DNA from: a virus
Taxonomy: Duplodnaviria; Heunggongvirae; Uroviricota; Caudoviricetes
Strand: one strand, 5' to 3'
Length of the DNA stretch: 13,763 nucleotides
IMG/VR virus record: IMGVR_UViG_2537562217_000016
Both the position numbers and the translations under genes were made by a program. Positions 1-13,763 of this stretch are shown here, piece by piece (the stretch's first letter is position 1; each line of letters opens with the position of its first letter). A model generated the notes under the pieces. That model had not been told where the DNA came from. It ran no database searches and was given only the letters and a program-made list of their open reading frames with translations.

Positions 1-1259
<1,259 letters not shown>

Positions 1260-1284
<25 letters not shown>

Positions 1285-1664
1285 CGCATAATCCGGGATA
1301 CGCATTCAGCGATGACTGCATTTTCACCGGTTTTTACTGCATCCAGAAGTGACTCTTTAAATGGTACGGGCCGGGGCTGCAGAAAGGTCGGCATGGCATT
1401 GAGCAGACAGAGCGTTTTTTCCGTGAGGACGACATCAGCCGCTCCCACAGCCAGCAACTGAGAGTAACGAATATAGCTGTTATCCCGAAGCCATATCAGC
1501 GTATCAATAAAACACCGGCACTTTTTCTGGTCGTGATCAACCTGGTCCGGGATATCGAAAAAACCAGAATAAATCAAAACCTGAGGTGCCGGATGCGTGT
1601 TCAGTAATCGGCAGAATATTTTGCCGGTGAGTACATAAAAATCATCATTTAAGGAGTGCATCAT
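1260..1664 (-). CDS. Hypothetical protein (134 aa), no recognisable family
   Basis: Only long ORF covering 1285..1662; convergent with and overlapping the P-loop ORF by 25 bp. Its start codon overlaps the start of the divergent 71-aa ORF, so strand assignment is uncertain. Confidence 0.35.
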
Positions 1665-1878
1665 GAATCCCCGATTAACGTTAACAGAACATCAGCGCCG
1701 TGCTGAAGCAGTGAACAATGTTCTGGAAGATATTATCCGGTTATACCGCGGAGAACTGAGTGTCTGTCGTGCCGCTTTTCATTTTCAGGGAATACAAAAG
1801 CAGTTTGATACTTCTGTTTTTGCAGAAGGTATTACTTATGCCCTGGACCGGATAAGGTCAGAAAATCGCCCCGGATAA
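1663..1878 (+). CDS. Hypothetical small protein (71 aa)
   Basis: Strong RBS AAGGAG (1651..1656) 6 nt upstream of ATG 1663; followed by a 12-bp-stem hairpin at 1933..1964. Confidence 0.45.
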   Translation: MNPRLTLTEHQRRAEAVNNVLEDIIRLYRGELSVCRAAFHFQGIQKQFDTSVFAEGITYALDRIRSENRPG

Positions 1879-1932
1879 TCCCTAAACCACATTAACAGAA
1901 ATCCCGCCATCCCTGCCGCATCATGAAAGAAC

Positions 1933-1964
1933 GACCAGCCCGGCACCCGAAAGCCGGGCTGGTC
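1933..1964. other. Perfect 12-bp stem / 8-nt loop hairpin (gaccagcccggc acccgaaa gccgggctggtc); possible terminator or REP-like element
   Basis: Read directly. No T-run follows on the plus strand; a weak T-rich tract (GTTCTTTCA) follows on the minus strand. Confidence 0.4.
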
Positions 1965-2068
1965 ATCGCCCCACAGGAATGCGCTGTGAGCCGACCAAGG
2001 TTCAGTCAGTCTCGCGAGACCTGACCAGACTGCCATATTTTTTAATAATTGTAAAAGGCTTACAGATT

Positions 2069-2833
2069 ATGAAAATGCAGACATTACCCATCGTGCCGTG
2101 GATTGGTGGCAAACGCCGCCTTGCAAAACACATTCTGCCGCTGTTTCCGGCGCATGAATGTTATGTGGAGCCGTTTTGTGGGGCAGCAGCGCTCTATTTT
2201 CTTAAGACACCCGGCAAGATCGAAGTCATCAATGATATCAACGGTGAACTGGTGAATCTGTACCGGGTGGTAAAGCATCACCTGGAAGAATTTGTCCGCC
2301 AGTTCAAATGGGCGCTGGTCAGCCGTCAGATCTACAAATGGCTGCAGATCACCCCGGAAGAAACACTGACGGATATCCAGCGTGCGGCACGGTTCTACTA
2401 CCTTCAGAAGCAGGCGTTTGGCGGCAAGGTGGCAGAGCACAGCTTCGGTACCTCCACCACATCCCCGCCACGCTTCAACCTGCTACGTATTGAAGAAGAA
2501 CTGTCAGCGGCACACCTGCGGCTTTCCAGAACAGTCATAGAACACATGGACTGGCAACAGTGCATTGAGCGTTATGATCGTCCGCACACGCTGTTCTACT
2601 GCGACCCACCGTACCTGGGTACGGAAGGCTATGGTGTGGATTTTCCTGAAGGGAACTACTCGCGGCTGGCAGAGCTGGCCCGGTGCATCAGAGGAAAAAT
2701 GATAATTTCGGTGAACGACATCCCGCAGATGCGCGAGGTGTTCACTGGACTGAACATACAGACAGTGAATATCAACTACAGTCTGGCGGGTAAACCCACG
2801 CCGCGCCGTGAACTGCTAATCTGCAACTTCTGA
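2069..2833 (+). CDS. Dam-family (D12 class) N6-adenine DNA methyltransferase, orphan
   Basis: N-terminal AdoMet-binding region PWIGGKRRL...EPFCGAAALYF and catalytic DPPY motif (LFYCDPPYLGTEGY); overall resemblance to Dam. Start chosen at ATG 2069 (RBS AAAAGG 2053..2058) rather than the longer track ORF from 1979. No adjacent restriction endonuclease candidate. Confidence 0.85.
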   Translation: MKMQTLPIVPWIGGKRRLAKHILPLFPAHECYVEPFCGAAALYFLKTPGKIEVINDINGELVNLYRVVKHHLEEFVRQFKWALVSRQIYKWLQITPEETLTDIQRAARFYYLQKQAFGGKVAEHSFGTSTTSPPRFNLLRIEEELSAAHLRLSRTVIEHMDWQQCIERYDRPHTLFYCDPPYLGTEGYGVDFPEGNYSRLAELARCIRGKMIISVNDIPQMREVFTGLNIQTVNINYSLAGKPTPRRELLICNF

Positions 2834-2840
2834 AACAAAA

Positions 2841-2863
2841 CCGGAAAGCACAATGCTTTCCGG
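2841..2863 (-). terminator. Rho-independent terminator for the leftward repressor transcript
   Basis: Perfect 10-bp stem ccggaaagca / tgctttccgg with a 3-nt loop, followed on the minus strand by TTTTGTTTCA (2840..2831). About 85 bp downstream of the repressor stop and abutting the dam stop. Confidence 0.55.
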
Positions 2864-2949
2864 TAAACCAAACAACTTCCACTATGTCACTGGCGATGTT
2901 TTCTGAAAGCATCCAGATCAACCACCTGTCCTTTGTGTCCGGGTCAGTA

Positions 2950-3306
2950 TCAGCCTGCGATTTTTCCTGGTTTTGGCTGAGTATAGAATCGCCCAATCTC
3001 AAGAAATGAGCGTTGTTGGTCTGGTGTCATGTCGTCAAAAGTATCTATTAGTTTTTGTTTTTCTGGGGAAATTTGATTCTGGTTTCTAGTCATACCATCT
3101 GTGCTCATTCCAGTGAGCAACCAATTTACATCAACATTAAACTCTTGATGCATCTTTAACAGAAACTCCCCTCCAGGCATCGCCTTTCCATTTTCAATCT
3201 GACTGATACCACCATTAGAAATACCTAAACGAGCTGCAAATTCTCTCTGGTTCAACCCTGCTTTCTTCCTCACAGAAATAACGCGCTCTCCTATATCTTT
3301 GCTCAT
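2950..3306 (-). CDS. Phage repressor, XRE/Cro-CI family HTH
   Basis: HTH_3 signature LNQREFAARLGISNGGISQIENGKAMP near the N-terminus; divergent from the early operon; operator half-site overlaps its start codon. Confidence 0.8.
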   Translation of the reverse strand: MSKDIGERVISVRKKAGLNQREFAARLGISNGGISQIENGKAMPGGEFLLKMHQEFNVDVNWLLTGMSTDGMTRNQNQISPEKQKLIDTFDDMTPDQQRSFLEIGRFYTQPKPGKIAG

Positions 3307-3329
3307 AAAAGTGAATCTCTATCTTGATA

Positions 3330-3347
3330 TGCTCATAATTATGAGCA
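3330..3347. promoter_or_regulatory. Operator: perfect 18-bp palindrome TGCTCATAATTATGAGCA within a candidate early promoter
   Basis: Read directly. It fills the spacer between candidate -35 TTGATA (3324..3329) and -10 ATAATC (3348..3353); a third copy of the half-site TGCTCATAA sits at 3300..3308 over the repressor start codon. Confidence 0.5.
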
Positions 3348-3399
3348 ATAATCTAACACATATAAGGCAAACATCATTGCATCAACAAAGGAGACAACG

Positions 3400-3588
3400 A
3401 TGACTGCAGAACAAGTCAAAGCTCTCTTCCGCCAGCGCGGGATCACTTTCACCCGCTGGGCAGAAGAAAACGGCTACAACCGCAATGAGGTATACCGCGT
3501 TCTCAACGGGCAGACCAAAGCCCGTTACGGTAAATCCCATGAAATCGCCGTGAAGTTGGGACTGAAATCAACAGCTCAGGCGGCCTAA
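3400..3588 (+). CDS. ner: Ner-like small DNA-binding protein (winged HTH, Ner/Nlp-type), first gene of early operon
   Basis: RBS AGGAG 3389..3393, ATG 3400. 62 aa with HTH and a C-terminal GKSHEIAVKLGL resembling the Ner/Nlp GE.IIAKALG motif; position equivalent to Mu ner. Confidence 0.6.
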   Translation: MTAEQVKALFRQRGITFTRWAEENGYNRNEVYRVLNGQTKARYGKSHEIAVKLGLKSTAQAA

Positions 3589-3640
3589 ATATTTTGAGTC
3601 TTTGTAAAAGGTTATCACATATCGCAAAAGAGGTATGCAG

Positions 3641-3949
3641 ATGAGTAAGACGAATGTTTCAAGCTCCGGCAGTCGCATCCTCCGGGTACTCAAAGCGCTG
3701 CGCGGTCATGCCCTGAACGGTATTTCTAACGGTGAACTGGCGACAGCACTGCACGAGTCACCGGCAAACATCAACCGGGCACTCAACACCCTCATTGAAG
3801 AAGGGCTGGCTCTGAAACTGGAGAACGGACGTTTTGCACCGGGCATCCAGTTACTGCAGATCGCCATGGCCCACAGTAACGAGATGGCACGTGCACAGGA
3901 TCGTATTAACGAAATTAACCAACGTGTCATTTCAGGTAGTCGTTTGTAA
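3641..3949 (+). CDS. Winged-helix DNA-binding protein (MarR/IclR-like HTH), hypothetical regulator
   Basis: RBS AAAAGAGG 3626..3633 favours ATG 3641 over ATG 3635. Motif GISNGELATALHESPANINRALNTLIEEGL is typical of a wHTH recognition helix. Confidence 0.6.
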   Translation: MSKTNVSSSGSRILRVLKALRGHALNGISNGELATALHESPANINRALNTLIEEGLALKLENGRFAPGIQLLQIAMAHSNEMARAQDRINEINQRVISGSRL

Positions 3950-3959
3950 GGAGTAATCA

Positions 3960-4880
3960 ATGGGACGTACCAAATCACCGATTAACACTGAACTGAACGC
4001 CGATGTACCGCTGTCGGATGATCTCAACGTCAGCCTGAATGCCATGACACAGCATCGCATGGAGATCATGCAGCAGTTTGGTGATGGACTGCCTTATGAA
4101 CGTGAACGCATCGTTCACGAAGCACGTTTTTATATGGCGCAGAGTGCTGAATCTATGTTGGAAGCGGGTAAGCGGCTGATCATCTTAAAAGAAAATGAAC
4201 CGCATGGTGATTTCACAAATATTCTGGAAAACGACCTCGGATTAGCACCACAGGTAGCTCGTCGCATGATGCAGGCCAGCGTGAAATTTCTCGGCAATGG
4301 AGATGAACAGCCAAAACGCTCAGCGCTGAGCGTTTTGGGAAAAACCAAGTTATATGAACTGATGGTTCTGGATGACGAAGAACTCGACGCATTAGCTGAT
4401 GGTGGAACCGTCGCCGGTGCAACGCTTGATGATATTGATCGCATGACCAGCCGCGAACTGAAGGCCGCCCTGCGTGAAGCGCGCGAAACCAACGCAGCTC
4501 AGCAACAGGTGCTTGCCGGAAAGGACGAAAAAATCAACGAACTGGCCACAAAACTGGAGAAGAAATCGCGCCTGCAACCTCCGCCGCCAGACGAAGAACT
4601 GAAAAAATTGCGGGCGGAAGTGACGGCATTAGCGGTTGAGGCCGAATCGGCTATCGCCGTCCGGCTGTCCAGTGTTTTTGAGACCCTGTGTGAATACTGC
4701 ACCAAAAACATGATCGATACCCCCAGAGATTTCATGGCCGGTCTGGTCTGCCAGATTGAACGCAGTGTTCATGCATTACGTGAGACGTTTGACCTTGAGG
4801 CCGCTCCATCGGGTAACGATGCCCCCGCCTGGCTGACCGAACCGGAACCTGAAATCAACCGACCGGAGGATATGCAGTAA
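3960..4880 (+). CDS. Hypothetical protein with DUF3102-like N-terminal region and central coiled coil (306 aa)
   Basis: RBS TAAGGAG 3948..3954, ATG 3960. Coiled-coil-like segment ETNAAQQQVLAGKDEKINELATKLEKK...LKKLRAEVTALAVEAE; the DUF3102 resemblance is recalled, not searched. Confidence 0.65.
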   Translation: MGRTKSPINTELNADVPLSDDLNVSLNAMTQHRMEIMQQFGDGLPYERERIVHEARFYMAQSAESMLEAGKRLIILKENEPHGDFTNILENDLGLAPQVARRMMQASVKFLGNGDEQPKRSALSVLGKTKLYELMVLDDEELDALADGGTVAGATLDDIDRMTSRELKAALREARETNAAQQQVLAGKDEKINELATKLEKKSRLQPPPPDEELKKLRAEVTALAVEAESAIAVRLSSVFETLCEYCTKNMIDTPRDFMAGLVCQIERSVHALRETFDLEAAPSGNDAPAWLTEPEPEINRPEDMQ

Positions 4881-5197
4881 TGAATACGAATAACACACAA
4901 AATACCCTGATGGACAGCCCGGAGGCACTGGGGCACGCACTGTGTAATCTGCTGCCGGAGATGGTGCAGGGTTTCCGCGTGGTGACCCCTTCCGGTGAAA
5001 TCTGCGTACCCGCACAGGAGACGCACCCGTTTGTACTGACGATGGAGGTGATGCTGATGCAGCAGATAAGACGTCTGCAGAATCAGTCAGCATTACGCCC
5101 GGTAGTTGCACCGCAACCGGTAAATACCGTGGTGAAAACCTGCGATGGCGAAACACTGTGCGACCTCGCCAGAAAAATTGCCGCCAGAATCGGATAA
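4880..5197 (+). CDS. Hypothetical protein (105 aa)
   Basis: Start ATG overlaps the upstream stop (TAATG at 4878..4882), indicating translational coupling; no recognisable motif. Confidence 0.5.
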   Translation: MNTNNTQNTLMDSPEALGHALCNLLPEMVQGFRVVTPSGEICVPAQETHPFVLTMEVMLMQQIRRLQNQSALRPVVAPQPVNTVVKTCDGETLCDLARKIAARIG

Positions 5198-5212
5198 CAG
5201 GGAAGACAAGCT

Positions 5213-6982
5213 ATGACCCCGGCACTGACTGAAAAACTGGTTGAAACAGCCCGCGCGGCACGTGACGCGGGGCATGGTAAACGCGGTGCAATATACGACG
5301 CTGCCTGTGCTGAACTTGGCATGTCCCGCGCCACTCTGCTGCGCAGGCTGAAGGAGGTATCTGTGACTGATAAACGCAAAAAACGCGCCGATGCCGGGCG
5401 CAGCGCCCTGACCCGCGACGAAGCCGCGCTGATATCTGCCACACTGCGTGAGGCCACCCGCAAGAACGGTAAGCGTCTCTATTCCATCGCAGATGCAGTG
5501 GAAACCCTGCGGGCTAACGGCTTTATCACCGCAGGCAGAACAGATGAAACCACCGGTGAGTTTTTCCCGTTGTCTGAAGATGCCATCAGCCGTGCTCTGC
5601 GTAACTATGGCCTGCACCCGGAACAACTGGATGCCCCTGCACCACATACCGAAGTGGCCAGTCTGCATCCCAATCATGTCTGGCAGATTGACGCCTCACT
5701 CTGCACGCTTTACTACCTGAGCAATGGACATAAAGGGCTGCAGGTGATGGACAGCGCGAAGTTCTACAAGAACAAGCCCGCTAACCTTGCCCGTATCGCC
5801 AGTGACCGCGTGTGGAGTTACGAGATTACCGACCATGCCAGCGGCTGGATTTACGTTGAGTATGTGACGGGCGCGGAATCAGGTGAGAACCTGTGTTCTG
5901 TGCTTATCAACGCCATGCAGGAGCGTGGCGGCGCAGACGTGCTGCACGGCGTGCCGAAAATACTCTATCTCGACCCCGGCTCGGCAAACACCGCGGGTAT
6001 GACGAAAAACATGTGCCGCTCACTGGGCATCGACCTGATAGCGCACAAGCCGCATAACGCCCGCGCCACCGGACAGGTGGAAAAGGCGCGTGACATTATC
6101 GAACGCAAGCTGGAGCCGGGTCTGAAGTTCCGGCCGGTTCACAGTCTGGAAGAACTCAACGCGCTGGCCGCGAAATGGCGCAGCCACTTTAACGCCACGG
6201 CTGTTCACAGCCGCCACGGTAAAACCCGCACGGATATCTGGCTGAAGATTACTGCTGAGCAGCTGAAAAAAGCGCCTTCCGTTGAGGTATGTCGTGAACT
6301 GGCTGTGGCGGCACCAGAACTCCGCAAAGTCACGCCAAAACTTCGTGTCTCGTTCCGGGGCACTGAATTTGACGTATCAACGGTACCGGGCGTACTGGTT
6401 GGTGAAAAACTGATGATTACCCGTAACCCATGGCGCAGCGATGTGGCACAGGTGGTTCTGACCGGTGAGGACGGCCACGAGACGTTCTTCCTGGTCGAAG
6501 AGGTCAGAAAGAACAAGTTTGGCTTTGCTGAAGGCGCGGCGGTATTTGGCGAAAGTTACAAAGCCCTGCCGGAAACCCCGGCACAGATGGCGGCAAAAGA
6601 AACCGAAGCGCTGGTTACCGGTACAGACAACGCCGCAGATGCAGCCGCCGCACGCAAGGCGAAGGCGCTGCCGTTCGGCGGGCGGCTTGACCCGTATAAA
6701 CATATCGACGACACCACACTTCCGGCCTATATGCCGAAGCGTGGTCAGGCCTCTGACGTACGCGGGCCGCGCACTGAACAACGTCCCATGACTCATGTGG
6801 AGGCCGCGAAAGCCCTGCGCGATAAGTTCAGCGCCGACGGCCTTACCTGGACGCCGGAACATTACCGCCAGTTAACGGCACAGTACCCGGACGGCGTACC
6901 GGAAGCCGCACTGGATGAAGTCATGGCCACGCTGACCACACCGGCCCGCAGCAGTGTTATCAGCATTGTTAACGGCAACTGA
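5213..6982 (+). CDS. DDE transposase of transposable phage (TnsB/Tn552/TniA-type DD(35)E core; MuA analogue)
   Basis: Catalytic triad read from the translation: D160 (HVWQIDAS, codon 5690..5692), D254 (ILYLDPGS, 5972..5974), E290 (ATGQVEKAR, 6080..6082), i.e. D-93-D-35-E. Basic N-terminal DNA-binding region. Position between ner and the ATPase. Confidence 0.85.
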   Translation: MTPALTEKLVETARAARDAGHGKRGAIYDAACAELGMSRATLLRRLKEVSVTDKRKKRADAGRSALTRDEAALISATLREATRKNGKRLYSIADAVETLRANGFITAGRTDETTGEFFPLSEDAISRALRNYGLHPEQLDAPAPHTEVASLHPNHVWQIDASLCTLYYLSNGHKGLQVMDSAKFYKNKPANLARIASDRVWSYEITDHASGWIYVEYVTGAESGENLCSVLINAMQERGGADVLHGVPKILYLDPGSANTAGMTKNMCRSLGIDLIAHKPHNARATGQVEKARDIIERKLEPGLKFRPVHSLEELNALAAKWRSHFNATAVHSRHGKTRTDIWLKITAEQLKKAPSVEVCRELAVAAPELRKVTPKLRVSFRGTEFDVSTVPGVLVGEKLMITRNPWRSDVAQVVLTGEDGHETFFLVEEVRKNKFGFAEGAAVFGESYKALPETPAQMAAKETEALVTGTDNAADAAAARKAKALPFGGRLDPYKHIDDTTLPAYMPKRGQASDVRGPRTEQRPMTHVEAAKALRDKFSADGLTWTPEHYRQLTAQYPDGVPEAALDEVMATLTTPARSSVISIVNGN

Positions 6983-6992
6983 GGAGGGAAAC

Positions 6993-8159
6993 ATGCTGGT
7001 ACTGAAGCAGCAACTGAAAGAGGCCCGTATTCCACAGGCGGTGGTGGCGAGAGCTGTCGATGTTTCTGAGGCCACGCTGGCCCAGATTGTGAATCATAAC
7101 GCGTGGCCCCGCACCAGCCCCGGAGAAGTGCGCCGGCGTCTTGCGTCCTGGCTGGAAAGTCAGGGGATTGATACAACGAAGAGTTTTGATGCTGTACAGG
7201 GCGCGGCCACGCCCCGTACAGCGGGTACCACAGATAAAACGAGCCTCAGTGAGGAAGAGAATATGTTACTCAAAAAACAGGTGTTATTTCCAGCAACCAA
7301 AAAAGCGTTTGGTCTTTTCCGTGACCCGTTCGCCGACGAAGCCATGCAGGGTTCTGATGATGTGTTCACCACCCCGGATATTCGCTACGTGCGTGAGGCG
7401 TTGTACCAGACAGCCCGTCATGGTGGGTTTATGGCCGTCATCGGTGAGTCCGGTGCGGGTAAATCCACGCTGCGCCGCGACCTGACTGAACGTATCAACC
7501 GCGAGAATGCGCCGGTAATTGTTATCGAGCCATACATCATCGCTATGGAAGACAACGATGTGAAAGGGAAAACCCTGAAGGCAGCAGCGATTGCCGAAGC
7601 CATTATCAGTACCATCGCACCACTGGAAAGCATCAGACGCAGTCAGGACGCCCGCTTTCGCCAGTTGCATCGCGTCCTGAAAGACAGCAGCCAGGCGGGG
7701 TTCAGCCACGTTCTGGTGATTGAGGAGGCCCACAGTCTGCCCATTCCGACACTGAAACACCTCAAACGCTTTTTTGAGCTGGAGTCCGGTTTCAAAAAAC
7801 TGCTGTCCATCGTGCTGATTGGCCAGCCGGAACTGGCGACAAAACTGTCTGAACGCAATATGGAAGTCCGTGAAGTCGTTCAGCGCTGTGAGGTGGTCGA
7901 ACTTCTGCCTCTGGACAATAACCTTGAAGAGTTTCTGACGTTCAAACTGCAACGGGCCGGTAAACAACTGACGGACATTATGGACGCCAGCGCAGTGGAT
8001 GCCATACGTGCCCGCCTGAGCAATCCGGGAAGTCATCGTAAAAATATGGTCAGCCTGCTGTATCCGCTGGCCGTCAGTAACCTGGTAATAGCCGCCATGA
8101 ATCTGGCCGCTGAAATCGGGGTTCCACAGGTCAACGCTGACGTTGTCAAAGGGGTTTAA
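6993..8159 (+). CDS. Transposition-associated AAA+ ATPase (MuB/TniB/TnsC analogue) with N-terminal HTH extension
   Basis: RBS GAGGAGGG 6981..6988, ATG 6993, 10 nt after the transposase stop. Walker A GESGAGKST (~7441..7470), Walker B HVLVIEEAH; N-terminal HTH-like ARAVDVSEATLAQIVNHN. Confidence 0.8.
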   Translation: MLVLKQQLKEARIPQAVVARAVDVSEATLAQIVNHNAWPRTSPGEVRRRLASWLESQGIDTTKSFDAVQGAATPRTAGTTDKTSLSEEENMLLKKQVLFPATKKAFGLFRDPFADEAMQGSDDVFTTPDIRYVREALYQTARHGGFMAVIGESGAGKSTLRRDLTERINRENAPVIVIEPYIIAMEDNDVKGKTLKAAAIAEAIISTIAPLESIRRSQDARFRQLHRVLKDSSQAGFSHVLVIEEAHSLPIPTLKHLKRFFELESGFKKLLSIVLIGQPELATKLSERNMEVREVVQRCEVVELLPLDNNLEEFLTFKLQRAGKQLTDIMDASAVDAIRARLSNPGSHRKNMVSLLYPLAVSNLVIAAMNLAAEIGVPQVNADVVKGV

Positions 8160-8161
8160 TA

Positions 8162-8431
8162 ATGAAATCCACCACAGGTATCAACCAGCAAATCAGCAAA
8201 GTGCAGTCAGCCATTATGGCGCTTAAGGCGACGAACACGGATGTACAAAGCATCACCATCAGGGGTAACAAACCTGTCATCCGCGTTTCCCGGAGTGCGC
8301 ATTGCATGCGCATGCTTGAGCAGGGAAAGGCCTGTTATCTGTATACCGGTCATGACCACAGGGGACATTTCCGTCAGGGCGTTTTCGAACTGCACGGCTG
8401 TCGCGTCGTGTGGCCGGAATCTTTGTGGTAA
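8162..8431 (+). CDS. Hypothetical protein (89 aa) in the position of Mu kil
   Basis: ATG 2 nt after the ATPase stop; Cys/His-rich C-terminal half (HCMRM...CYLYTGHDHRGH...HGC). Function unknown. Confidence 0.5.
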   Translation: MKSTTGINQQISKVQSAIMALKATNTDVQSITIRGNKPVIRVSRSAHCMRMLEQGKACYLYTGHDHRGHFRQGVFELHGCRVVWPESLW

Positions 8432-8458
8432 TCAGCACAACAGGAGGAGTCATAAAAT

Positions 8459-8989
8459 ATGGCAAAAAGTACAAAAGGGGCAAAACGTATCAAAGCCGCA
8501 GCAGCACTCTGGGTGCCGGGGACACGCGAAGAGGTCATTGAGGGAATCAGACTGCTTGGTGACGCGCAACGTGAACTGGTCAGGGCTGAAACAGAAATGA
8601 ATGACACCATTGGCGACATCACTGCACGTTATGCCCCGCTCACCGAGAGCCTGAAAAAACGCATGGCCGAACTGCAGTCCGGTATCCAGACATGGTGTGA
8701 GGCGCACCGTGATGAACTGACCGGCAACGGGAAGGTGAAGTTCGCTAACCTCACCACCGGCGAGGTGCAGTGGCGAAACCGTCCGCCGTCAGTCAGCATT
8801 CGCGGGGCGGATAATGTCATTGAACTGCTGAGACGTCTGGGGCTTGAGCGCTTTATTCGTGTAAAGGAGGAAATAAATAAAGATGCCATTCTGAATGAAA
8901 AAGAGGCTGTGAAAAATATTCCCGGTATTACCATAAAAAGTGATATTGAGGATTTTTCAATAATTCCTTTTGAGCAGGATGTGCAGTAA
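8459..8989 (+). CDS. gam: Host-nuclease inhibitor protein Gam (Mu Gam family)
   Basis: RBS AGGAGG 8442..8447. Extended colinear similarity to phage Mu Gam as recalled: RIKAAAA, ETEMND, WCEAHRDELTGNGKVKFANLTTGEVQWRNRPPSVSIRG, LGLERFIRVKEEINKDAIL, GITIKSDIEDFSIIPFEQ. Confidence 0.9.
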   Translation: MAKSTKGAKRIKAAAALWVPGTREEVIEGIRLLGDAQRELVRAETEMNDTIGDITARYAPLTESLKKRMAELQSGIQTWCEAHRDELTGNGKVKFANLTTGEVQWRNRPPSVSIRGADNVIELLRRLGLERFIRVKEEINKDAILNEKEAVKNIPGITIKSDIEDFSIIPFEQDVQ

Positions 8990-9086
8990 ACACACCACGT
9001 TAATTATTTAATAAAAACATTTTCTTTTTTATTCCGGCGTCAGCGCCGCGGGCTTCTGCACGCCGGAAACAGAGGAGAATTAAATT

Positions 9087-9281
9087 ATGATATTTAAATG
9101 TATTCAGTGCGAGAGGGATATAACAGCCCTGCGTTTTCACAGCGCCATCGCCGTGATGTCCGGTAAGTATCACATACCTGCAGTACGTGTCACCCTGGTC
9201 TGCCCGTACTGCAGCCAGCATTTTTCGGCGGACGTGCCCGTCATGGAATTCTCCCGCCCTGACAGGGAGGACGCGCAATGA
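9087..9281 (+). CDS. Small zinc-ribbon protein (64 aa; CxxC ... CxxC)
   Basis: RBS GAGGAG 9073..9078, ATG 9087. Cys pairs KCIQCE and VCPYCS. Confidence 0.5.
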   Translation: MIFKCIQCERDITALRFHSAIAVMSGKYHIPAVRVTLVCPYCSQHFSADVPVMEFSRPDREDAQ

Positions 9282-9550
9282 TTACCCCACAGGAAGCACG
9301 ACAGCGCACCCGAACTCTTGTTGAACACTATGTCAACGAGTGTGAATGCCGCGACCTCACCGATGTGAAGCACGTCCTGACGGCGCTAATCAGCATGGCC
9401 ACACAGGCCATTGTGGCGACCAACGGAAAGGAGGCTGCCCTGCAGGTACTGATGAACACACTCACCCACACGGCAGAGCATGAGGTGCCGTACCGGATGG
9501 AAACCACTGCAGAAGGCGGCCTGCACATCACCGTCAGCCGGAAGCACTGA
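9278..9550 (+). CDS. Hypothetical protein (90 aa)
   Basis: ATGA start/stop overlap with the upstream ORF (translational coupling); no recognisable motif. Confidence 0.45.
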   Translation: MITPQEARQRTRTLVEHYVNECECRDLTDVKHVLTALISMATQAIVATNGKEAALQVLMNTLTHTAEHEVPYRMETTAEGGLHITVSRKH

Positions 9551-9559
9551 GGGCGCGGC

Positions 9560-9856
9560 ATGACACGAAACACCGAACTCACCCGCACCGCCCTCTACCG
9601 TCTGGCCCTGCAGCGTTTCGGGCCGGACGCACAGGCCCTGAAACTGGCAGAAGAGGCCGCTGAACTGGCGGCCAGTGCCGCCCGCAACCTGAACGGACAG
9701 GGCAGCGAAAGTGACCTCGCGGCAGAGCTGGCAGACGTGGAAATCATGACAGAGCAACTGCGCCTTCAGGGGATGGACCGGCTGATTGACTTCCACAAAC
9801 AGAAAAAACTGGAACGTCTGGCTGCACGACTGGGCGTGATTTACACGAACGAGTAA
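9560..9856 (+). CDS. Putative MazG-like all-alpha NTP pyrophosphohydrolase-domain protein (98 aa)
   Basis: Acidic helix motifs LAEEAAELAASAA and AAELADVEIMTEQL plus C-terminal KQKKLERL resemble the EExxE/ExxD metal-binding helices of small phage MazG-like proteins. Assignment is from motifs only. Confidence 0.45.
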   Translation: MTRNTELTRTALYRLALQRFGPDAQALKLAEEAAELAASAARNLNGQGSESDLAAELADVEIMTEQLRLQGMDRLIDFHKQKKLERLAARLGVIYTNE

Positions 9857-9870
9857 CCGGGAGGCATTCA

Positions 9871-10086
9871 ATGGCTGACATACTCAGGGAAATCACCGCA
9901 TGGACACTGATTCTTACTGGCCTGGCGACATGCCTCAGTGCGGGGGCAGCCCTGGCTGCCCTGCTGATGCACATAACAACACAGTGGTTATGGGAAAAGC
10001 TTAAAGCAGCATACAGCCTGAAAGAGCTGTCCGACGCTGTCCGGGCATGGAAACGGCAGAAAAATACCGGAGATACAGAACAATGA
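9871..10086 (+). CDS. Small membrane protein (71 aa; one predicted TM helix)
   Basis: RBS GGGAGG 9857..9862, ATG 9871. Hydrophobic stretch WTLILTGLATCLSAGAALAALLM. Confidence 0.45.
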   Translation: MADILREITAWTLILTGLATCLSAGAALAALLMHITTQWLWEKLKAAYSLKELSDAVRAWKRQKNTGDTEQ

Positions 10087-10766
10087 CAGACCAGAATAAA
10101 CACATTGAGAAACTGAAAAAGTTGCTGGCGCTGGCCGCATCCGGCAACCCGCACGAGGCCGCTCTGGCACTGCGCCGAGCCCGTAAACTGATGGATGTTC
10201 ACGGCATCACACATTCCGACATTGCTATGAGTGATATTGATGAAACCATCAGTCACTACTGGCCGACAGGCAGTCTCCGTCCACCGCGCTACATGCTGGG
10301 CCTGATGAACATCATCCGCGAGGTATTTGGTGTTAACTCCATCATTCACCCCGGCACGCATCCGTCTGTGGGGTTCTACGGCAACCGGGAACGTGCGGCA
10401 CTGGCTGCATACACCTGGGAAGTGCTGGCCCGTCAGCTGAAAAAGGCGCGTCAGCAGTATATCAGTGCACAGAACAAAAGAATAAAAACCGCCACCCGCA
10501 CCAGCCGTGGAGACCAGTTTGCCGAAGGCTGGGTGCTGGCCGTTATCAGTGAAATACAGTCCTTTGCCCTGACCGATGATGAGCGTGAATTGATGCAGCA
10601 GTGGCTGGAACATAAATACCCGCAGACGCAAACCACCAGGGCGCGTAAACCGGGAAGAAGCCGCAATGGCGACGCCTCGCGCTATGCGGGGTTTCGTGAA
10701 GGGCAGAACGTCAGACTGCACCGCCCGGTCAGTGGGCAGGAACAACAGAAACTGGAGGCCAGATGA
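10083..10766 (+). CDS. DUF2786-like protein (227 aa)
   Basis: ATG 10083 overlaps the upstream stop (ATGA) and is preferred over the track start at 10047. N-terminal motif IEKLKKLLALAASGNPHEAALALRRARKLM resembles the DUF2786 signature as I recall it. Confidence 0.6.
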   Translation: MTDQNKHIEKLKKLLALAASGNPHEAALALRRARKLMDVHGITHSDIAMSDIDETISHYWPTGSLRPPRYMLGLMNIIREVFGVNSIIHPGTHPSVGFYGNRERAALAAYTWEVLARQLKKARQQYISAQNKRIKTATRTSRGDQFAEGWVLAVISEIQSFALTDDERELMQQWLEHKYPQTQTTRARKPGRSRNGDASRYAGFREGQNVRLHRPVSGQEQQKLEAR

Positions 10767-10993
10767 TTACGCTATCAGGTAAAAGCCGGAAATTAAAAGC
10801 CTGCCGAATATCTGCCAGATACCTTTTTGCCCGCGCCTTTTTTAAGAACGTCAGGCCGGGGATCACAATTGGTGTTATTGCCGGACGCGAACAGGTTGAA
10901 AAATACATGTCAGGTGCATGGTGGAATAACGACCCTGTCATTGCTGCCCGTAATATTCATATCGAATGGGGAGGTATTCAGAATGACTACTGA
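10763..10993 (+). CDS. Hypothetical protein (76 aa)
   Basis: ATGA overlap with the upstream ORF stop; no motif recognised. Confidence 0.4.
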   Translation: MITLSGKSRKLKACRISARYLFARAFFKNVRPGITIGVIAGREQVEKYMSGAWWNNDPVIAARNIHIEWGGIQNDY

Positions 10994-11189
10994 AACCATT
11001 GTCTGTTTTCTTTTCTGGTATATGTACGCAGGATCATGCAGCGCAAGACTTCATCGTTCCCTGGGCTATGGCAGGCACTACGACACCGCGCATTACATCC
11101 TGTACATGACCGCCGTCATGTTGTTCTGGCCAGTCACCCTGCCAGCTGCAACCGACATTGTTGCCGACAGACTGAAAAAAAGGAGATGA
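10983..11189 (+). CDS. Small membrane protein (68 aa; two hydrophobic segments)
   Basis: ATG 10983 overlaps the upstream ORF end. Hydrophobic segments IVCFLFWYMYAG and ILYMTAVMLFWPV. The track's longer ORF from 10827 is rejected as an upstream extension. Confidence 0.4.
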   Translation: MTTETIVCFLFWYMYAGSCSARLHRSLGYGRHYDTAHYILYMTAVMLFWPVTLPAATDIVADRLKKRR

Positions 11190-11190
11190 T

Positions 11191-11388
11191 ATGCAGAAAA
11201 AACGCCTGATACAGCTTATCCATATTGCCCGTAATGAACTGGGTATGGATGAAGACACCTACCGCCAGATGTTACAGGGGCTGACCGGTAAAGCCTCAAC
11301 CAAAGGAATGGATACCACACAACTAAACTGCGTGCGTAAGCGTCGTCTCAGCACCGTCTGGCAGATCCTGAAATTCCTGAGAGAATAG
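11191..11388 (+). pseudogene. GemA/gp16-like (DUF1018) gene truncated by IS66-family insertion; only ~48 native codons (11191..~11335) remain
   Basis: RBS AGGAG 11181..11185, ATG 11191. N-terminal LIQLIHIARNELGMDEDTYRQMLQGLTGKASTKGM matches the conserved start of Mu gp16/GemA-like proteins as I recall it. The reading frame runs into the IS end at ~11336 and stops at 11386..11388. Confidence 0.55.
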
Positions 11389-11416
11389 TGGACACCAAAT
11401 ATGGTGGACGCTATTC

Positions 11417-11821
11417 ATGAAATCATTAACCGCAGTGCGTAAAAAAAGCCCTAATTATCCCGTTGAGTTCAAAATCAAAATGGTGGAACTCTCGCATCGA
11501 CCAGAGATCTCCGTAGCGCAACTCGCTCGTGAGCATGGGATCAACGATAATTTGCTGTTCAAGTGGCGCCAGTACTGGCGCGAAGGAAAACTACGTCCTC
11601 CTTCAACAACAGAAAACAACGTGCCTGAGCTGCTCCCGATAACACTTGATGCCGAAGATGTTGTCCCTACAACCTCCCCCCGGTCACAACCTGTAGCTGC
11701 TGCGACACCTGAATCACTCAATATCAGCTGTGAAGTGACGTTCCGGCACGGATCACTCCGTCTGAATGGTGCCATCAGCGAAAATATCCTGAACCTGCTG
11801 ATACGGGAGCTCAAACGTTGA
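11417..11821 (+). CDS. tnpA: IS66-family accessory protein TnpA (orfA)
   Basis: 134 aa with HTH region ISVAQLAREHGINDNLLFKWRQYW; first ORF of the IS66 module. Confidence 0.85.
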   Translation: MKSLTAVRKKSPNYPVEFKIKMVELSHRPEISVAQLAREHGINDNLLFKWRQYWREGKLRPPSTTENNVPELLPITLDAEDVVPTTSPRSQPVAAATPESLNISCEVTFRHGSLRLNGAISENILNLLIRELKR

Positions 11822-12165
11822 TCCCATTACCATCAGGGACAAAGATCTGGCTGGTCGCTGGCATCACCGATATGAGAAACGGCTTCAACGGCCTGGCGGC
11901 AAAGGTGCAGACGACGCTGAAAGACGATCCGATGTCAGGTCACGTTTTTATCTTCCGTGGGCGTAATGGCAGTCAGGTAAAGCTCCTCTGGTCTACCGGC
12001 GATGGACTGTGTCTGCTGACCAAACGGCTGGAGCGCGGCCGCTTCGCCTGGCCGTCAGCCCGGGATGGCAAAGTGTTCCTCACACCGGCACAGCTGGCGA
12101 TGCTGCTGGAAGGTATCGACTGGCGGCAGCCTAAAAGACTACTTACGTCCCTGACTATGTTGTAA
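11818..12165 (+). CDS. tnpB: IS66-family TnpB (orfB)
   Basis: Highly characteristic IPLPSGTKIWLVAGITDMRNGFNGLAAKVQ... N-terminus; TTG start at 11818 overlaps the tnpA stop (11819..11821). Confidence 0.9.
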   Translation: MIPLPSGTKIWLVAGITDMRNGFNGLAAKVQTTLKDDPMSGHVFIFRGRNGSQVKLLWSTGDGLCLLTKRLERGRFAWPSARDGKVFLTPAQLAMLLEGIDWRQPKRLLTSLTML

Positions 12166-12213
12166 GCCTCTTTATCCTGGTCGACGCTGAATGAGCCTGG
12201 TAATATACCCGGT

Positions 12214-13751
12214 ATGAGCAGCTCACTTCCTGACGATATCAATGCACTGAAACGTCTCCTTGCCGAACAGGAGGCGCTGAACCGTGCCCTGCTGGAAAAG
12301 CTGAACGAGCGTGAACGCGAAATAGACCATCTGCAGGCACAGCTGGATAAGCTGCGCCGGATGAACTTCGGCAGCCGCTCGGAAAAAGTCTCCCGTCGTA
12401 TCGCACAGATGGAAGCTGACCTGAAGGCACTTCAGAAAGAAAGTGATACCCTTACCGGTCGGGTTGACGACCCGGCCGTGCAGCGCCCGCTGCGTCAAAC
12501 CCGCACCCGCAAACCGTTCCCCGAATCACTCCCCCGCGATGAAAAACGGCTGCTGCCGGCAGCGTCATGCTGCCCGGAATGTGGAGGCTCGCTGAGCTAT
12601 CTGGGTGAGGATGCCGCCGAACAGCTGGAGTTGATGCGCAGCGCCTTCCGGGTTATCCGGACTGTACGTGAAAAGCATGCCTGTACTCAGTGCGATGCCA
12701 TCGTGCAGGCCCCCGCGCCTTCACGGCCCATCGAGCGGGGTATCGCAGGACCGGGGCTGCTGGCCCGCGTGCTGATCTCAAAGTATGCAGAGCACACCCC
12801 GCTGTACCGCCAGTCTGAAATGTACGGCCGCCAGGGCGTGGAGCTGAGTCGTTCACTGCTGTCGGGCTGGGTGGATGCATGCTGCCGGCTACTGTCACCG
12901 CTGGAAGAAGCGCTTCAGGACTATGTGCTGACTGACGGTAAGCTCCATGCTGATGACACGCCTGTCCCGGTGCTGTTGCCAGGCAATAAGAAAACGAAGA
13001 CCGGGCGGTTATGGACCTACGTTCGTGACGACCGTAACGCCGGGTCAACGCTGGCGCCGGCGGTGTGGTTCGCTTACAGCCCGGACAGAAAAGGCATCCA
13101 TCCGCAGACCCATCTTGCGGGGTTCAGTGGTGTACTGCAGGCGGATGCATACGCCGGGTTCAACGAGCTGTACCGGGATGGCCGGATAACGGAAGCCGCC
13201 TGTTGGGCTCACGCCCGCCGTAAAATCCACGATGTGCACGTTCGCACCCCGTCAGCCCTGACGGAGGAAGCGCTGAACGGATCGGCGAACTGTACGCCAT
13301 CGAGGCAGAGATAAGGGGAATGACGGCGGAGCAGCGCCTTGCCGAACGTCAGTTGAAAACGAAACCGCTGCTGAAATCCCTGGAAAGCTGGCTGCGTGAA
13401 AAGATGAAAACCCTGTCGCGACACTCAGAACTGGCGAAAGCGTTCGCATACGCCCTGAACCAGTGGCTGGCGCTGACGTACTATGCAGATGATGGCTGGG
13501 CTGAGGCGGACAATAACATCGCTGAAAATGCGTTGCGGATGGTCAGTCTGGGCCGCAAAAACTACCTGTTCTTCGGTTCGGATCATGGAGGAGAGCGGGG
13601 AGCGCTGCTGTACAGCCTGATCGGGACGTGCAAACTGAACGGAGTGGAGCCAGAAAGCTACCTCCGCTATGTCCTTGACGTCATAGCCGACTGGCCGATA
13701 AACCGGGTCGGCGAACTGCTCCCCTGGCGCGTAGCACTGCCGACTGAATAA
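12214..13751 (+). pseudogene. tnpC: IS66-family transposase TnpC (orfC), interrupted by an apparent 1-nt frameshift near 13276..13278
   Basis: ORF 12214..13314 (366 aa; leucine-zipper-like N-terminus, CPECGG zinc-finger-like motif, DDE region) and ORF 13320..13751 (143 aa) are colinear in different frames. The downstream frame is already open from ~13260 (…[20 protein letters not shown]…), and the combined ~510 aa matches full-length TnpC. Confidence 0.8.
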
Positions 13752-13763
13752 CACATCCCCGTC

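What the first reader, a model, noticed from the sequence alone, without database searches (positions are those of the whole stretch)
11191..11420. IS66-family insertion splits the GemA/gp16-like gene
The GemA-like reading frame runs uninterrupted into the IS66-family terminus (GTAAGCG at ~11336) after only about 48 native codons and ends at an IS-internal stop. In Mu-like phages gemA precedes the middle-operon activator mor, so a roughly 2.5-kb insertion here probably separates the early region from middle and late functions and may have made the prophage defective.
Basis: partly seen in the sequence, partly recalled or inferred. Interest (0 to 1): 0.5.

Follow-up and report, generated by a model that had tools for sequence, protein, structure and literature searches.

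The report
ISEc22 insertion splitting a prophage gemA gene
A common E. coli jumping gene (ISEc22) has landed inside the small gemA gene at the far end of a Mu-type prophage, which is an ordinary gene disruption that may or may not cripple the prophage.

Summary
The GemA/gp16 ORF starts at 11191, matches uninterrupted relatives through 11335 (48 codons plus 1 nt), then runs into the left end of ISEc22 (IS66 family, 99.9% identity) at 11336 and stops at 11388.

The window is a whole draft contig (APXQ01000025.1) that ends 25 bp before the IS right end. Nine sister assemblies carry the missing side: IS end, 8-bp duplication CTGCGTGC, the remaining 305 nt of gemA, an intact mor, and the phage end. 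Removing the IS plus one duplication copy rebuilds a gene 450/450 identical to that of E. coli JJ1887.

This prophage has a BcepMu-like layout, with lysis, head and tail genes on the opposite, divergently transcribed arm. Only 829 nt of phage DNA lie beyond the insertion, so the IS separates only mor from the early promoter. Defectiveness is plausible through polarity on mor but is untested.

Two caveats apply. The IS part of the window is a collapsed consensus of at least 5 genomic copies, so the transposase "frameshift" is not attributable to this copy. A second IS (IS100) occupies window 1-573.

This is an ordinary finding of low interest.

The parts
11191..11335 (+). 5' fragment of the gemA/gp16-family gene: 48 native codons plus 1 nt of a 149-codon gene
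   Evidence: Identical to JJ1887 and PhiKM up to 11335. Pfam GemA profile positions 1-30 of 119. The intact relative covers 1-119 of 119 at 140 bits.
11328..11335 (.). Target site CTGCGTGC, the left copy of the 8-bp target-site duplication
   Evidence: The same 8 bp follow the IS right end in nine sister assemblies, L010-L018. Excising the IS plus one copy restores the gene 450/450.
11191..11388 (+). Chimeric 65-aa ORF: 48 GemA residues plus 17 residues read from the IS left end, with stop TAG at 11386-11388
   Evidence: This exact product is called on 16 contigs from NCBI, Logan and ENA and is deposited as a hypothetical protein in E. coli P0298942.2 and 2845350.
11336..13763 (+). ISEc22 (IS66 family), positions 1-2429 of 2454. 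The last 25 bp, including the right inverted repeat, lie beyond the contig end. The sequence is a collapsed assembly consensus of several genomic copies.
   Evidence: 99.9% identity to annotated ISEc22. Length and ends come from reference copy L008.
11336..11361 (+). ISEc22 left terminal inverted repeat, GTAAGCGTCGTCTCAGCACCGTCTGG
   Evidence: Read directly. The right end in the reference and sister contigs is ...CAATACGGTTCTTGCTGCACGCTTAC.
11417..11821 (+). IS66 tnpA (accessory, HTH_Tnp_1), 134 aa
   Evidence: Pfam PF01527, 9e-12. RefSeq annotation of identical copies.
11818..12165 (+). IS66 tnpB (accessory, TnpB_IS66), 115 aa
   Evidence: Pfam PF05717, 1.6e-38.
12214..13751 (+). IS66 DDE transposase (tnpC), split into 366-aa and 143-aa ORFs by a 1-nt deletion (AAA to AA) at about 13275
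   Evidence: Pfam LZ_Tnp_IS66, zf-IS66, DDE_Tnp_IS66 and IS66_C. Deletion found by alignment to the reference. It cannot be assigned to this copy.
574..11190 (+). Context: regulatory and early arm of a BcepMu-like transposable prophage. It includes a Dam-like methylase, repressor 2950-3306 (-), DDE transposase 5213-6982, B-like ATPase 6993-8159, Gam 8459-8989 and a DUF2786 protein 10083-10766.
   Evidence: Collinear with the JJ1887 prophage at 99.48% with no gaps. Annotation and Pfam.
1..573 (-). Context: the istA-side 573 bp of IS100 (IS21 family). Its terminus ...GTTCGTGACA ends at 573. It is inserted 18 nt into a 242-aa P-loop gene of the same prophage.
   Evidence: A sister contig (L025) spans the whole 1,954-bp IS100 with the 5-bp duplication CCGGT.

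Best explanation
A copy of ISEc22, a 2,454-bp IS66-family insertion sequence with tnpA, tnpB and a DDE transposase, transposed into codon 49 of the 149-codon gemA/gp16 gene of a BcepMu-like transposable prophage. It duplicated the 8-bp target CTGCGTGC. The IS lies in the same orientation as the phage early operon. Shown: GemA is reduced to its first 48 residues fused to 17 IS-encoded residues. The remaining 305 nt of gemA, an unchanged mor gene and the 163-nt phage right end now lie 2.46 kb further from the early promoter. Inferred: GemA is lost, which is probably tolerable because its function is unknown and, from my recollection of the Mu literature, it is dispensable in Mu. Expression of Mor, the only Mor/C-family activator annotated in this prophage, now depends on read-through of the IS or on transcription starting inside it. 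Late-gene activation is therefore probably weakened or uncoupled from normal early control. I put the chance that lytic development is significantly impaired at about 50-55%. The allele is fixed in a small clone of draft-sequenced E. coli and is absent from 5,426 complete genomes.
For: The break with intact relatives is exact at 11335|11336, and the sequence beyond it is 99.9% ISEc22. The IS has a 2,454-bp architecture with GTAAGCG.../...CGCTTAC ends and an 8-bp duplication in a reference copy. The predicted right junction GCACGCTTAC|CTGCGTGC|TGGAATCCATG is present in nine assemblies. Two assemblies, GCA_000357405.2 and GCA_000356465.2, have both junction contigs. Excision in silico restores gemA 450/450, and mor is 129/129 identical. 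All five ISEc22 copies in a sister assembly have pairwise matching 8-bp duplications. The 65-aa chimeric and the 98/102-aa remnant products are deposited from the same strains. Prophage architecture comes, and the phage end is shared across four host contexts. The cascade Mor to Pm to C to late promoters in Mu is described in bioRxiv 10.1101/2025.05.02.651988. GemA is described as a hallmark protein of unknown function in PMC9239132. IS66-family members with 8-bp direct repeats and multi-ORF structure are listed in PMC3281130.
Against: Contiguity across the IS is not demonstrated. All contigs break in or at the IS, which is present in at least 5 copies and was assembled as one consensus. The right junction was not retrieved for the window's own assembly, GCA_000356525.2. 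For the functional part, no + strand terminator-like site is predicted in the IS. The IS genes are co-oriented and closely spaced, which disfavours Rho-dependent polarity. mor also has its own GGGAG Shine-Dalgarno sequence 6 nt from its ATG. So mor may still be expressed and the prophage may remain viable.
Confidence: 0.9

Rival explanations
1. The insertion is functionally neutral for the phage. GemA is dispensable, early transcription reads through the co-oriented IS or starts within it, mor is translated from its own ribosome-binding site, and the prophage remains inducible and productive. The structure is the same as in the best explanation, but the consequence differs.
For: No predicted intrinsic terminator on the + strand between the IS left end and mor. 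mor is intact with its own Shine-Dalgarno sequence. The rest of the early arm and 8 kb of the late arm are gap-free relative to the JJ1887 prophage.
Against: An extra 2.46 kb with three foreign ORFs, plus about 300 nt of probably untranslated gemA remnant before mor, is a typical setting for polarity. A second IS (IS100) in the same prophage suggests it is no longer under purifying selection.
Confidence: 0.4
2. One reading: the 2.5-kb insertion physically separates the early region from the middle and late genes, as it would in phage Mu itself, and so cuts off downstream morphogenetic functions.
For: gemA does precede mor, as in Mu.
Against: In this phage, only 829 nt of phage DNA lie downstream of the insertion site: the gemA remainder, mor, and a 163-nt end. 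The next genes are host genes, ycaL in JJ1887 and a rihA fragment with gltL in this lineage. Lysis, head and tail genes are on the opposite arm and opposite strand.
Confidence: 0.03
3. The junction is an assembly artefact: a chimeric contig joining a prophage contig to an unrelated IS copy.
For: The IS part of the contig is a pasted collapsed consensus. One sister contig ends with two bases that do not match the expected flank.
Against: The same left junction occurs in at least 16 contigs from independent NCBI assemblies, a Logan run assembly and an ENA metagenome. The reciprocal right junction, with the exact 8-bp duplication, occurs in nine assemblies. Gene callers report the truncated halves, not the intact gene, in the same strains.
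Confidence: 0.02
4. The insertion was simple originally, but later homologous recombination between two of the at least 5 ISEc22 copies inverted or translocated DNA. The two gemA halves would then no longer be adjacent, and mor would be physically detached from the prophage.
For: Multiple identical IS copies exist in the chromosome and on a plasmid. No contig bridges the IS with unique sequence on both sides.
Against: There is no positive evidence for rearrangement. In strain 2845350 the two halves carry locus tags 0714 and 0717, separated by the two partial IS ORFs that end and start the junction contigs, which is consistent with adjacent ordering. Both flanks are otherwise collinear with the reference prophage.
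Confidence: 0.06

Closest known systems
ISEc22 (IS66 family insertion sequence of E. coli)
   Same: 99.9% nucleotide identity. It has the same tnpA-tnpB-tnpC organisation, the same GTAAGCG termini, a 2,454-bp length and an 8-bp target duplication.
   Different: Nothing of substance differs. The window copy shows one substitution (11485) and a 1-nt deletion (about 13275), both of which belong to a collapsed assembly consensus. The insertion site in gemA is not seen in any of 5,426 complete E. coli genomes.
gemA (gp16) and mor of bacteriophage Mu
   Same: It has a Pfam GemA domain and lies immediately upstream of, and overlapping, a Mor-family activator gene at the 3' end of the early operon.
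   Different: In Mu the middle and late genes continue downstream of mor. Here the genome ends 163 nt after mor, and only one Mor/C-family gene is annotated, with no separate C.
BcepMu-like transposable phages (genus Bcepmuvirus), for example Escherichia phage PhiKM and the aroA-ycaL prophage of ST131 strain JJ1887
   Same: 99.3-99.5% DNA identity over the early arm. Gene order is the same: repressor, transposase, B-like ATPase, Gam, DUF2786, GemA, Mor. The late arm is divergent, and the host flanks vary.
   Different: The window's prophage sits at a different chromosomal site (a rihA fragment next to gltL). It carries two IS insertions, ISEc22 in gemA and IS100 in a P-loop gene.
IS-disrupted prophages in E. 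coli generally (recalled from general knowledge, not tested here)
   Same: An IS lands in a prophage gene, is fixed in a clone and may contribute to prophage decay. A sister assembly also has ISEc22 between lambdoid tail genes.
   Different: There is no evidence here that the prophage is actually defective.

Membership tests
IS66 family / ISEc22 | Three co-oriented ORFs: tnpA (HTH), tnpB (IS66 Orf2-like) and tnpC (DDE_Tnp_IS66 with zinc-finger and leucine-zipper regions) | tested here: met
   Pfam PF01527, PF05717, PF13007, PF13005, PF03050 and PF13817, all well above their cutoffs.
IS66 family / ISEc22 | Imperfect terminal inverted repeats beginning 5'-GTAAGCG | tested here: met
   The left end is at 11336 in the window. 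The right end ...CGCTTAC is outside the window but present in the reference and in nine sister contigs.
IS66 family / ISEc22 | 8-bp target-site duplication | tested here: met
   CTGCGTGC lies on both sides of the gemA copy across paired contigs. Four other copies in a sister genome and the reference copy also have 8-bp duplications. An 8-bp direct repeat is listed for IS66 members in PMC3281130.
IS66 family / ISEc22 | Near-identity to the named element ISEc22 | tested here: met
   99.8-99.9% identity over 2,428 nt to copies that RefSeq annotates as the 'IS66-like element ISEc22 family'. The ISfinder reference entry itself could not be consulted.
GemA / gp16 family (PF06252) | Significant match to the GemA profile | tested here: met
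   The window fragment scores 31.6 bits (cutoff 27) but covers only profile positions 1-30 of 119. The intact relative scores 140 bits over 1-119, and the 98-aa remnant scores 92 bits over 34-119.
GemA / gp16 family (PF06252) | Position at the end of the early operon, directly upstream of and overlapping mor | tested here: met
   Shown in JJ1887 and PhiKM and in sister contigs downstream of the IS.
GemA / gp16 family (PF06252) | Activity of Mu GemA (modulation of host gene expression and DNA topology) | not testable with these tools
   PMC9239132 describes GemA as a protein of unknown function.
Mu-like (BcepMu-type) transposable prophage | DDE (rve) transposase, AAA+ B-like protein, Gam, GemA, Mor and a Mu-type portal | tested here: met
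   Precomputed Pfam hits and annotations.
Mu-like (BcepMu-type) transposable prophage | The same phage terminus (ending CA) joined to different host DNA in different genomes | tested here: met
   Four contexts share 163 nt after mor, ending ...TAATCA, and then diverge. The left end was not located: a search for an inverted copy of the right end found nothing.
Mu-like (BcepMu-type) transposable prophage | The early arm is inverted relative to Mu, so that mor is the terminal gene and late genes are transcribed divergently | tested here: met
   JJ1887 map. L025 shows the same layout in the IS-bearing lineage.

The most novel reading that the evidence does not exclude
The co-oriented IS rewires mor, the prophage's only Mor/C-type activator. 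It removes mor from repressor-controlled early transcription and places it under the IS's own constitutive, low-level read-out transcription. This would create either a lysogen locked out of late gene expression that still replicates by transposition when induced (a self-killing, non-productive element) or one with leaky late and lysis expression. Together with the IS100 hit and an ISEc22 hit in a lambdoid tail module, it would illustrate IS bursts domesticating several prophages in one clone.
Probability: 0.1. Interest if true: 0.3.

Novelty: already known. Interest (0 to 1): 0.1.

Why it matters
It matters little beyond annotation. It shows that the 65-aa "hypothetical protein" deposited for these strains is a gemA-IS fusion artefact. 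It also shows that the 98/102-aa "hypothetical proteins" are the other half of the same gene. The contig is bounded by two insertion sequences, which is why it ends where it does. For anyone studying this clone, the prophage carries two IS hits and may be on the way to decay. For automated scans, it is a reminder that Mu gene order cannot be assumed for BcepMu-type prophages, and that IS sequence at draft contig ends can be a pasted consensus.

Tried and rejected
1. I looked for the same junction in 5,426 complete E. coli genomes. None has it, and the best hits stop at 11335.

2. I looked for the prophage in the phage collection. Only PhiKM matched, and it is uninterrupted.

3. I first treated the 1-nt deletion in the transposase as a real pseudogenising mutation of this copy. 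I rejected that after finding the identical IS consensus, frameshifts included, on at least nine contig ends of one sister assembly.

4. The 'TC' tail after the IS end in contig APXV01000001.1 initially suggested a different right flank or a rearrangement. It is explained as repeat-consensus padding, because in another assembly all left-junction contigs end in the same extra base 'G'.

5. The IS100 and prophage BLAST matches overlap at 574-589, which suggested a shared sequence. Comparing four independent IS100 copies put the true IS100 end at 573, so the overlap is chance flank similarity.

6. A search for an inverted copy of the phage right end, to locate the left end in JJ1887, found nothing with 6 or fewer mismatches. 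I did not pursue it.

7. Literature searches for the strain name P0298942 and for phage PhiKM returned nothing relevant.

8. I did not run structure prediction, remote-homology searches or collection scans, because identity to known elements was already 99% or higher.

Full report
**1. The observation**

The ORF at 11191-11388 (+) encodes 65 aa. Pfam finds a GemA domain covering only residues 19-48, which match profile positions 1-30 of 119 (31.6 bits, cutoff 27).

Alignment with the uninterrupted genes of E. coli JJ1887 (annotated 'gp16 family protein', 149 aa) and of Escherichia phage PhiKM ('protein GemA') shows base-for-base identity up to 11335. All similarity is lost from 11336, where GTAAGCGTCGTC... 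begins. That gives 48 native codons plus one base, then 17 codons read from foreign DNA and a TAG stop.

The foreign DNA (11336-13763) is 99.8-99.9% identical over its whole length to elements annotated ISEc22 (IS66 family) in thousands of E. coli replicons. The alignments begin at 11336. Its ORFs carry the IS66 domain set: HTH_Tnp_1; TnpB_IS66; and LZ, zinc-finger, DDE_Tnp_IS66 and IS66_C.

**2. What lies beyond the window**

A complete reference ISEc22 copy is 2,454 bp. It has GTAAGCG.../...CGCTTAC ends and a perfect 8-bp duplication. The window therefore stops 25 bp before the IS right end.

The window is the entire 13,763-bp contig APXQ01000025.1 of draft assembly GCA_000356525.2. No complete E. 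coli genome has this junction. However, the exact chimeric 65-aa product is called on 16 contigs from NCBI drafts, a Logan run and an ENA metagenome.

I predicted the other junction as IS end + CTGCGTGC + TGGAATCCATG..., with remnant ORFs of 98 or 102 aa. Both exact proteins exist, deposited from the same strains that carry the 65-aa product (E. coli P0298942.2 and 2845350). Their contigs start inside ISEc22 and show precisely the predicted junction in nine assemblies. It is followed by the gemA remainder, a 129-aa Mor-family gene and host DNA.

Two assemblies contain both junction contigs. Deleting the IS and one copy of the duplication in silico regenerates a gene 450/450 identical to JJ1887's, and Mor is 129/129 identical.

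**3. Caveats from the assemblies**

In sister assembly GCA_000356465.2, the same 2.35-kb IS core, including two 1-nt deletions, is attached to at least nine contig ends with unrelated flanks. Every left-junction contig ends with the same extra base. The IS sequence in these drafts is therefore one collapsed consensus of at least 5 copies. Three consequences follow:

- The 1-nt deletion at about 13275, which splits the transposase in the window into 366 aa and 143 aa, cannot be ascribed to the gemA copy and may be a homopolymer error.
- The odd 'TC' tail in one sister contig is padding from the repeat consensus.
- Physical contiguity across the IS is inferred, not demonstrated.

The five copies pair up by matching 8-bp duplications, so each arose by simple insertion. 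Later IS-IS recombination cannot be excluded, and I give it about 6%.

**4.

The uninterrupted prophage in JJ1887 spans aroA to ycaL. Tail, head and lysis genes are all on the minus strand. Next come a P-loop gene, a Dam-like methylase and the repressor. The rightward early operon follows: Ner-like protein, transposase, B-like ATPase, Gam, several small ORFs, DUF2786, GemA, Mor.

Four different genomic contexts share the 163 nt after mor, ending ...TAATCA, and then diverge. This marks the transposable-phage terminus. Only 829 nt of phage DNA lie beyond the insertion point. This is the BcepMu-type layout, and the depositor classifies PhiKM as a Bcepmuvirus. The IS therefore does not stand between the early region and the late genes. 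It stands only between the early promoter and mor.

**5. Likely consequence (inference)**

In Mu, Mor activates the middle promoter, whose product C activates the late promoters (bioRxiv 10.1101/2025.05.02.651988). GemA is a hallmark protein of unknown function (PMC9239132). Here only one Mor/C-family gene is annotated, so late expression probably depends on it.

Points suggesting the prophage still works:
- The IS is co-oriented with the operon.
- No + strand terminator-like site is predicted in the IS.
- mor keeps its own GGGAG ribosome-binding site.

Points suggesting it is impaired:
- There are 2.46 kb of extra transcript.
- About 300 nt of probably untranslated gemA remnant precede mor.

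I estimate roughly even odds that the lytic cycle is significantly impaired. This needs experiment.

**6. Second IS**

Window 1-573 is the istA-side end of IS100. A sister contig spans the whole 1,954-bp element with a 5-bp duplication (CCGGT), 18 nt into the 242-aa P-loop gene. The late arm continues beyond it, collinear with JJ1887 at 99.86%.

The window's 246-aa ORF at 544-1284 is therefore also an IS-gene chimera, and the contig is bounded by repeats at both ends. One assembly with the gemA insertion calls the P-loop gene at its native 242 aa. This suggests that ISEc22 arrived before IS100.

**7. Verdict**

A known IS sits in a known prophage gene, verified as a simple insertion. The functional speculation is plausible but unproven, and it rested on the wrong gene map. 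Interest is low.

Noticed in passing
window 1-573 (junction 573|574) and ORF 544-1284: The left end of the window is IS100 (IS21 family, istA on the minus strand). It is inserted 18 nt into a 242-aa P-loop gene of the same prophage, about 150 nt from the divergent holin/late-operon start. Sister contig L025 spans the full 1,954-bp IS with the 5-bp duplication CCGGT. The 246-aa ORF at 544-1284 is an IS-gene chimera.
   Followed up: yes
whole window (= contig APXQ01000025.1, GCA_000356525.2): The window is a complete draft contig bounded by two repeated insertion sequences. This explains both of its ends.
   Followed up: yes
window ~13275 (transposase ORFs 12214-13314 and 13320-13751) and 11485: A 1-nt deletion in an AAA run splits the ISEc22 transposase. 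The same IS consensus, indels included, is pasted onto at least nine contig ends in a sister assembly. The change is therefore a property of a collapsed repeat consensus, and possibly a homopolymer error, not of the copy in gemA.
   Followed up: yes
L028 / L034 (GCA_000356465.2 contigs APXH01000118.1 and APXH01000063.1): Another ISEc22 copy, with duplication GGTAAAAG, lies between the tape-measure gene and the tail assembly chaperone genes of a lambdoid prophage in the same clone. A further copy, with duplication AGGAAATA, lies on an IncF-type plasmid between finO and an SNase-hha-repA region. There are at least five copies per genome.
   Followed up: partly
L011 3123-3430 (downstream of mor in the IS-bearing lineage): In this lineage the prophage right end abuts a 48-aa IU_nuc_hydro fragment next to a four-gene ABC-transporter cluster, which I read as a disrupted rihA beside gltLKJI. 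The ST131 relative instead sits between aroA and ycaL. This fits random Mu-type transposition and suggests a host gene was knocked out by the prophage.
   Followed up: partly
L004 (GCA_000355415.2, AQDS01000062.1): This assembly has the ISEc22-gemA junction but calls the P-loop gene at its native 242 aa. That implies no IS100 there, so ISEc22 inserted first and IS100 arrived later in a sub-lineage. This is inferred from the product length only.
   Followed up: no
L019 (Logan SRR7851093) and L020 (ENA ERZ28578755): Two unrelated contigs begin inside gemA, 7 nt past the ISEc22 target site, so the same 98-aa ORF is called there. L019 has the ycaL flank and L020 has a further, different host flank. 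Whether these breaks reflect IS polymorphism or chance contig ends is unknown.
   Followed up: no
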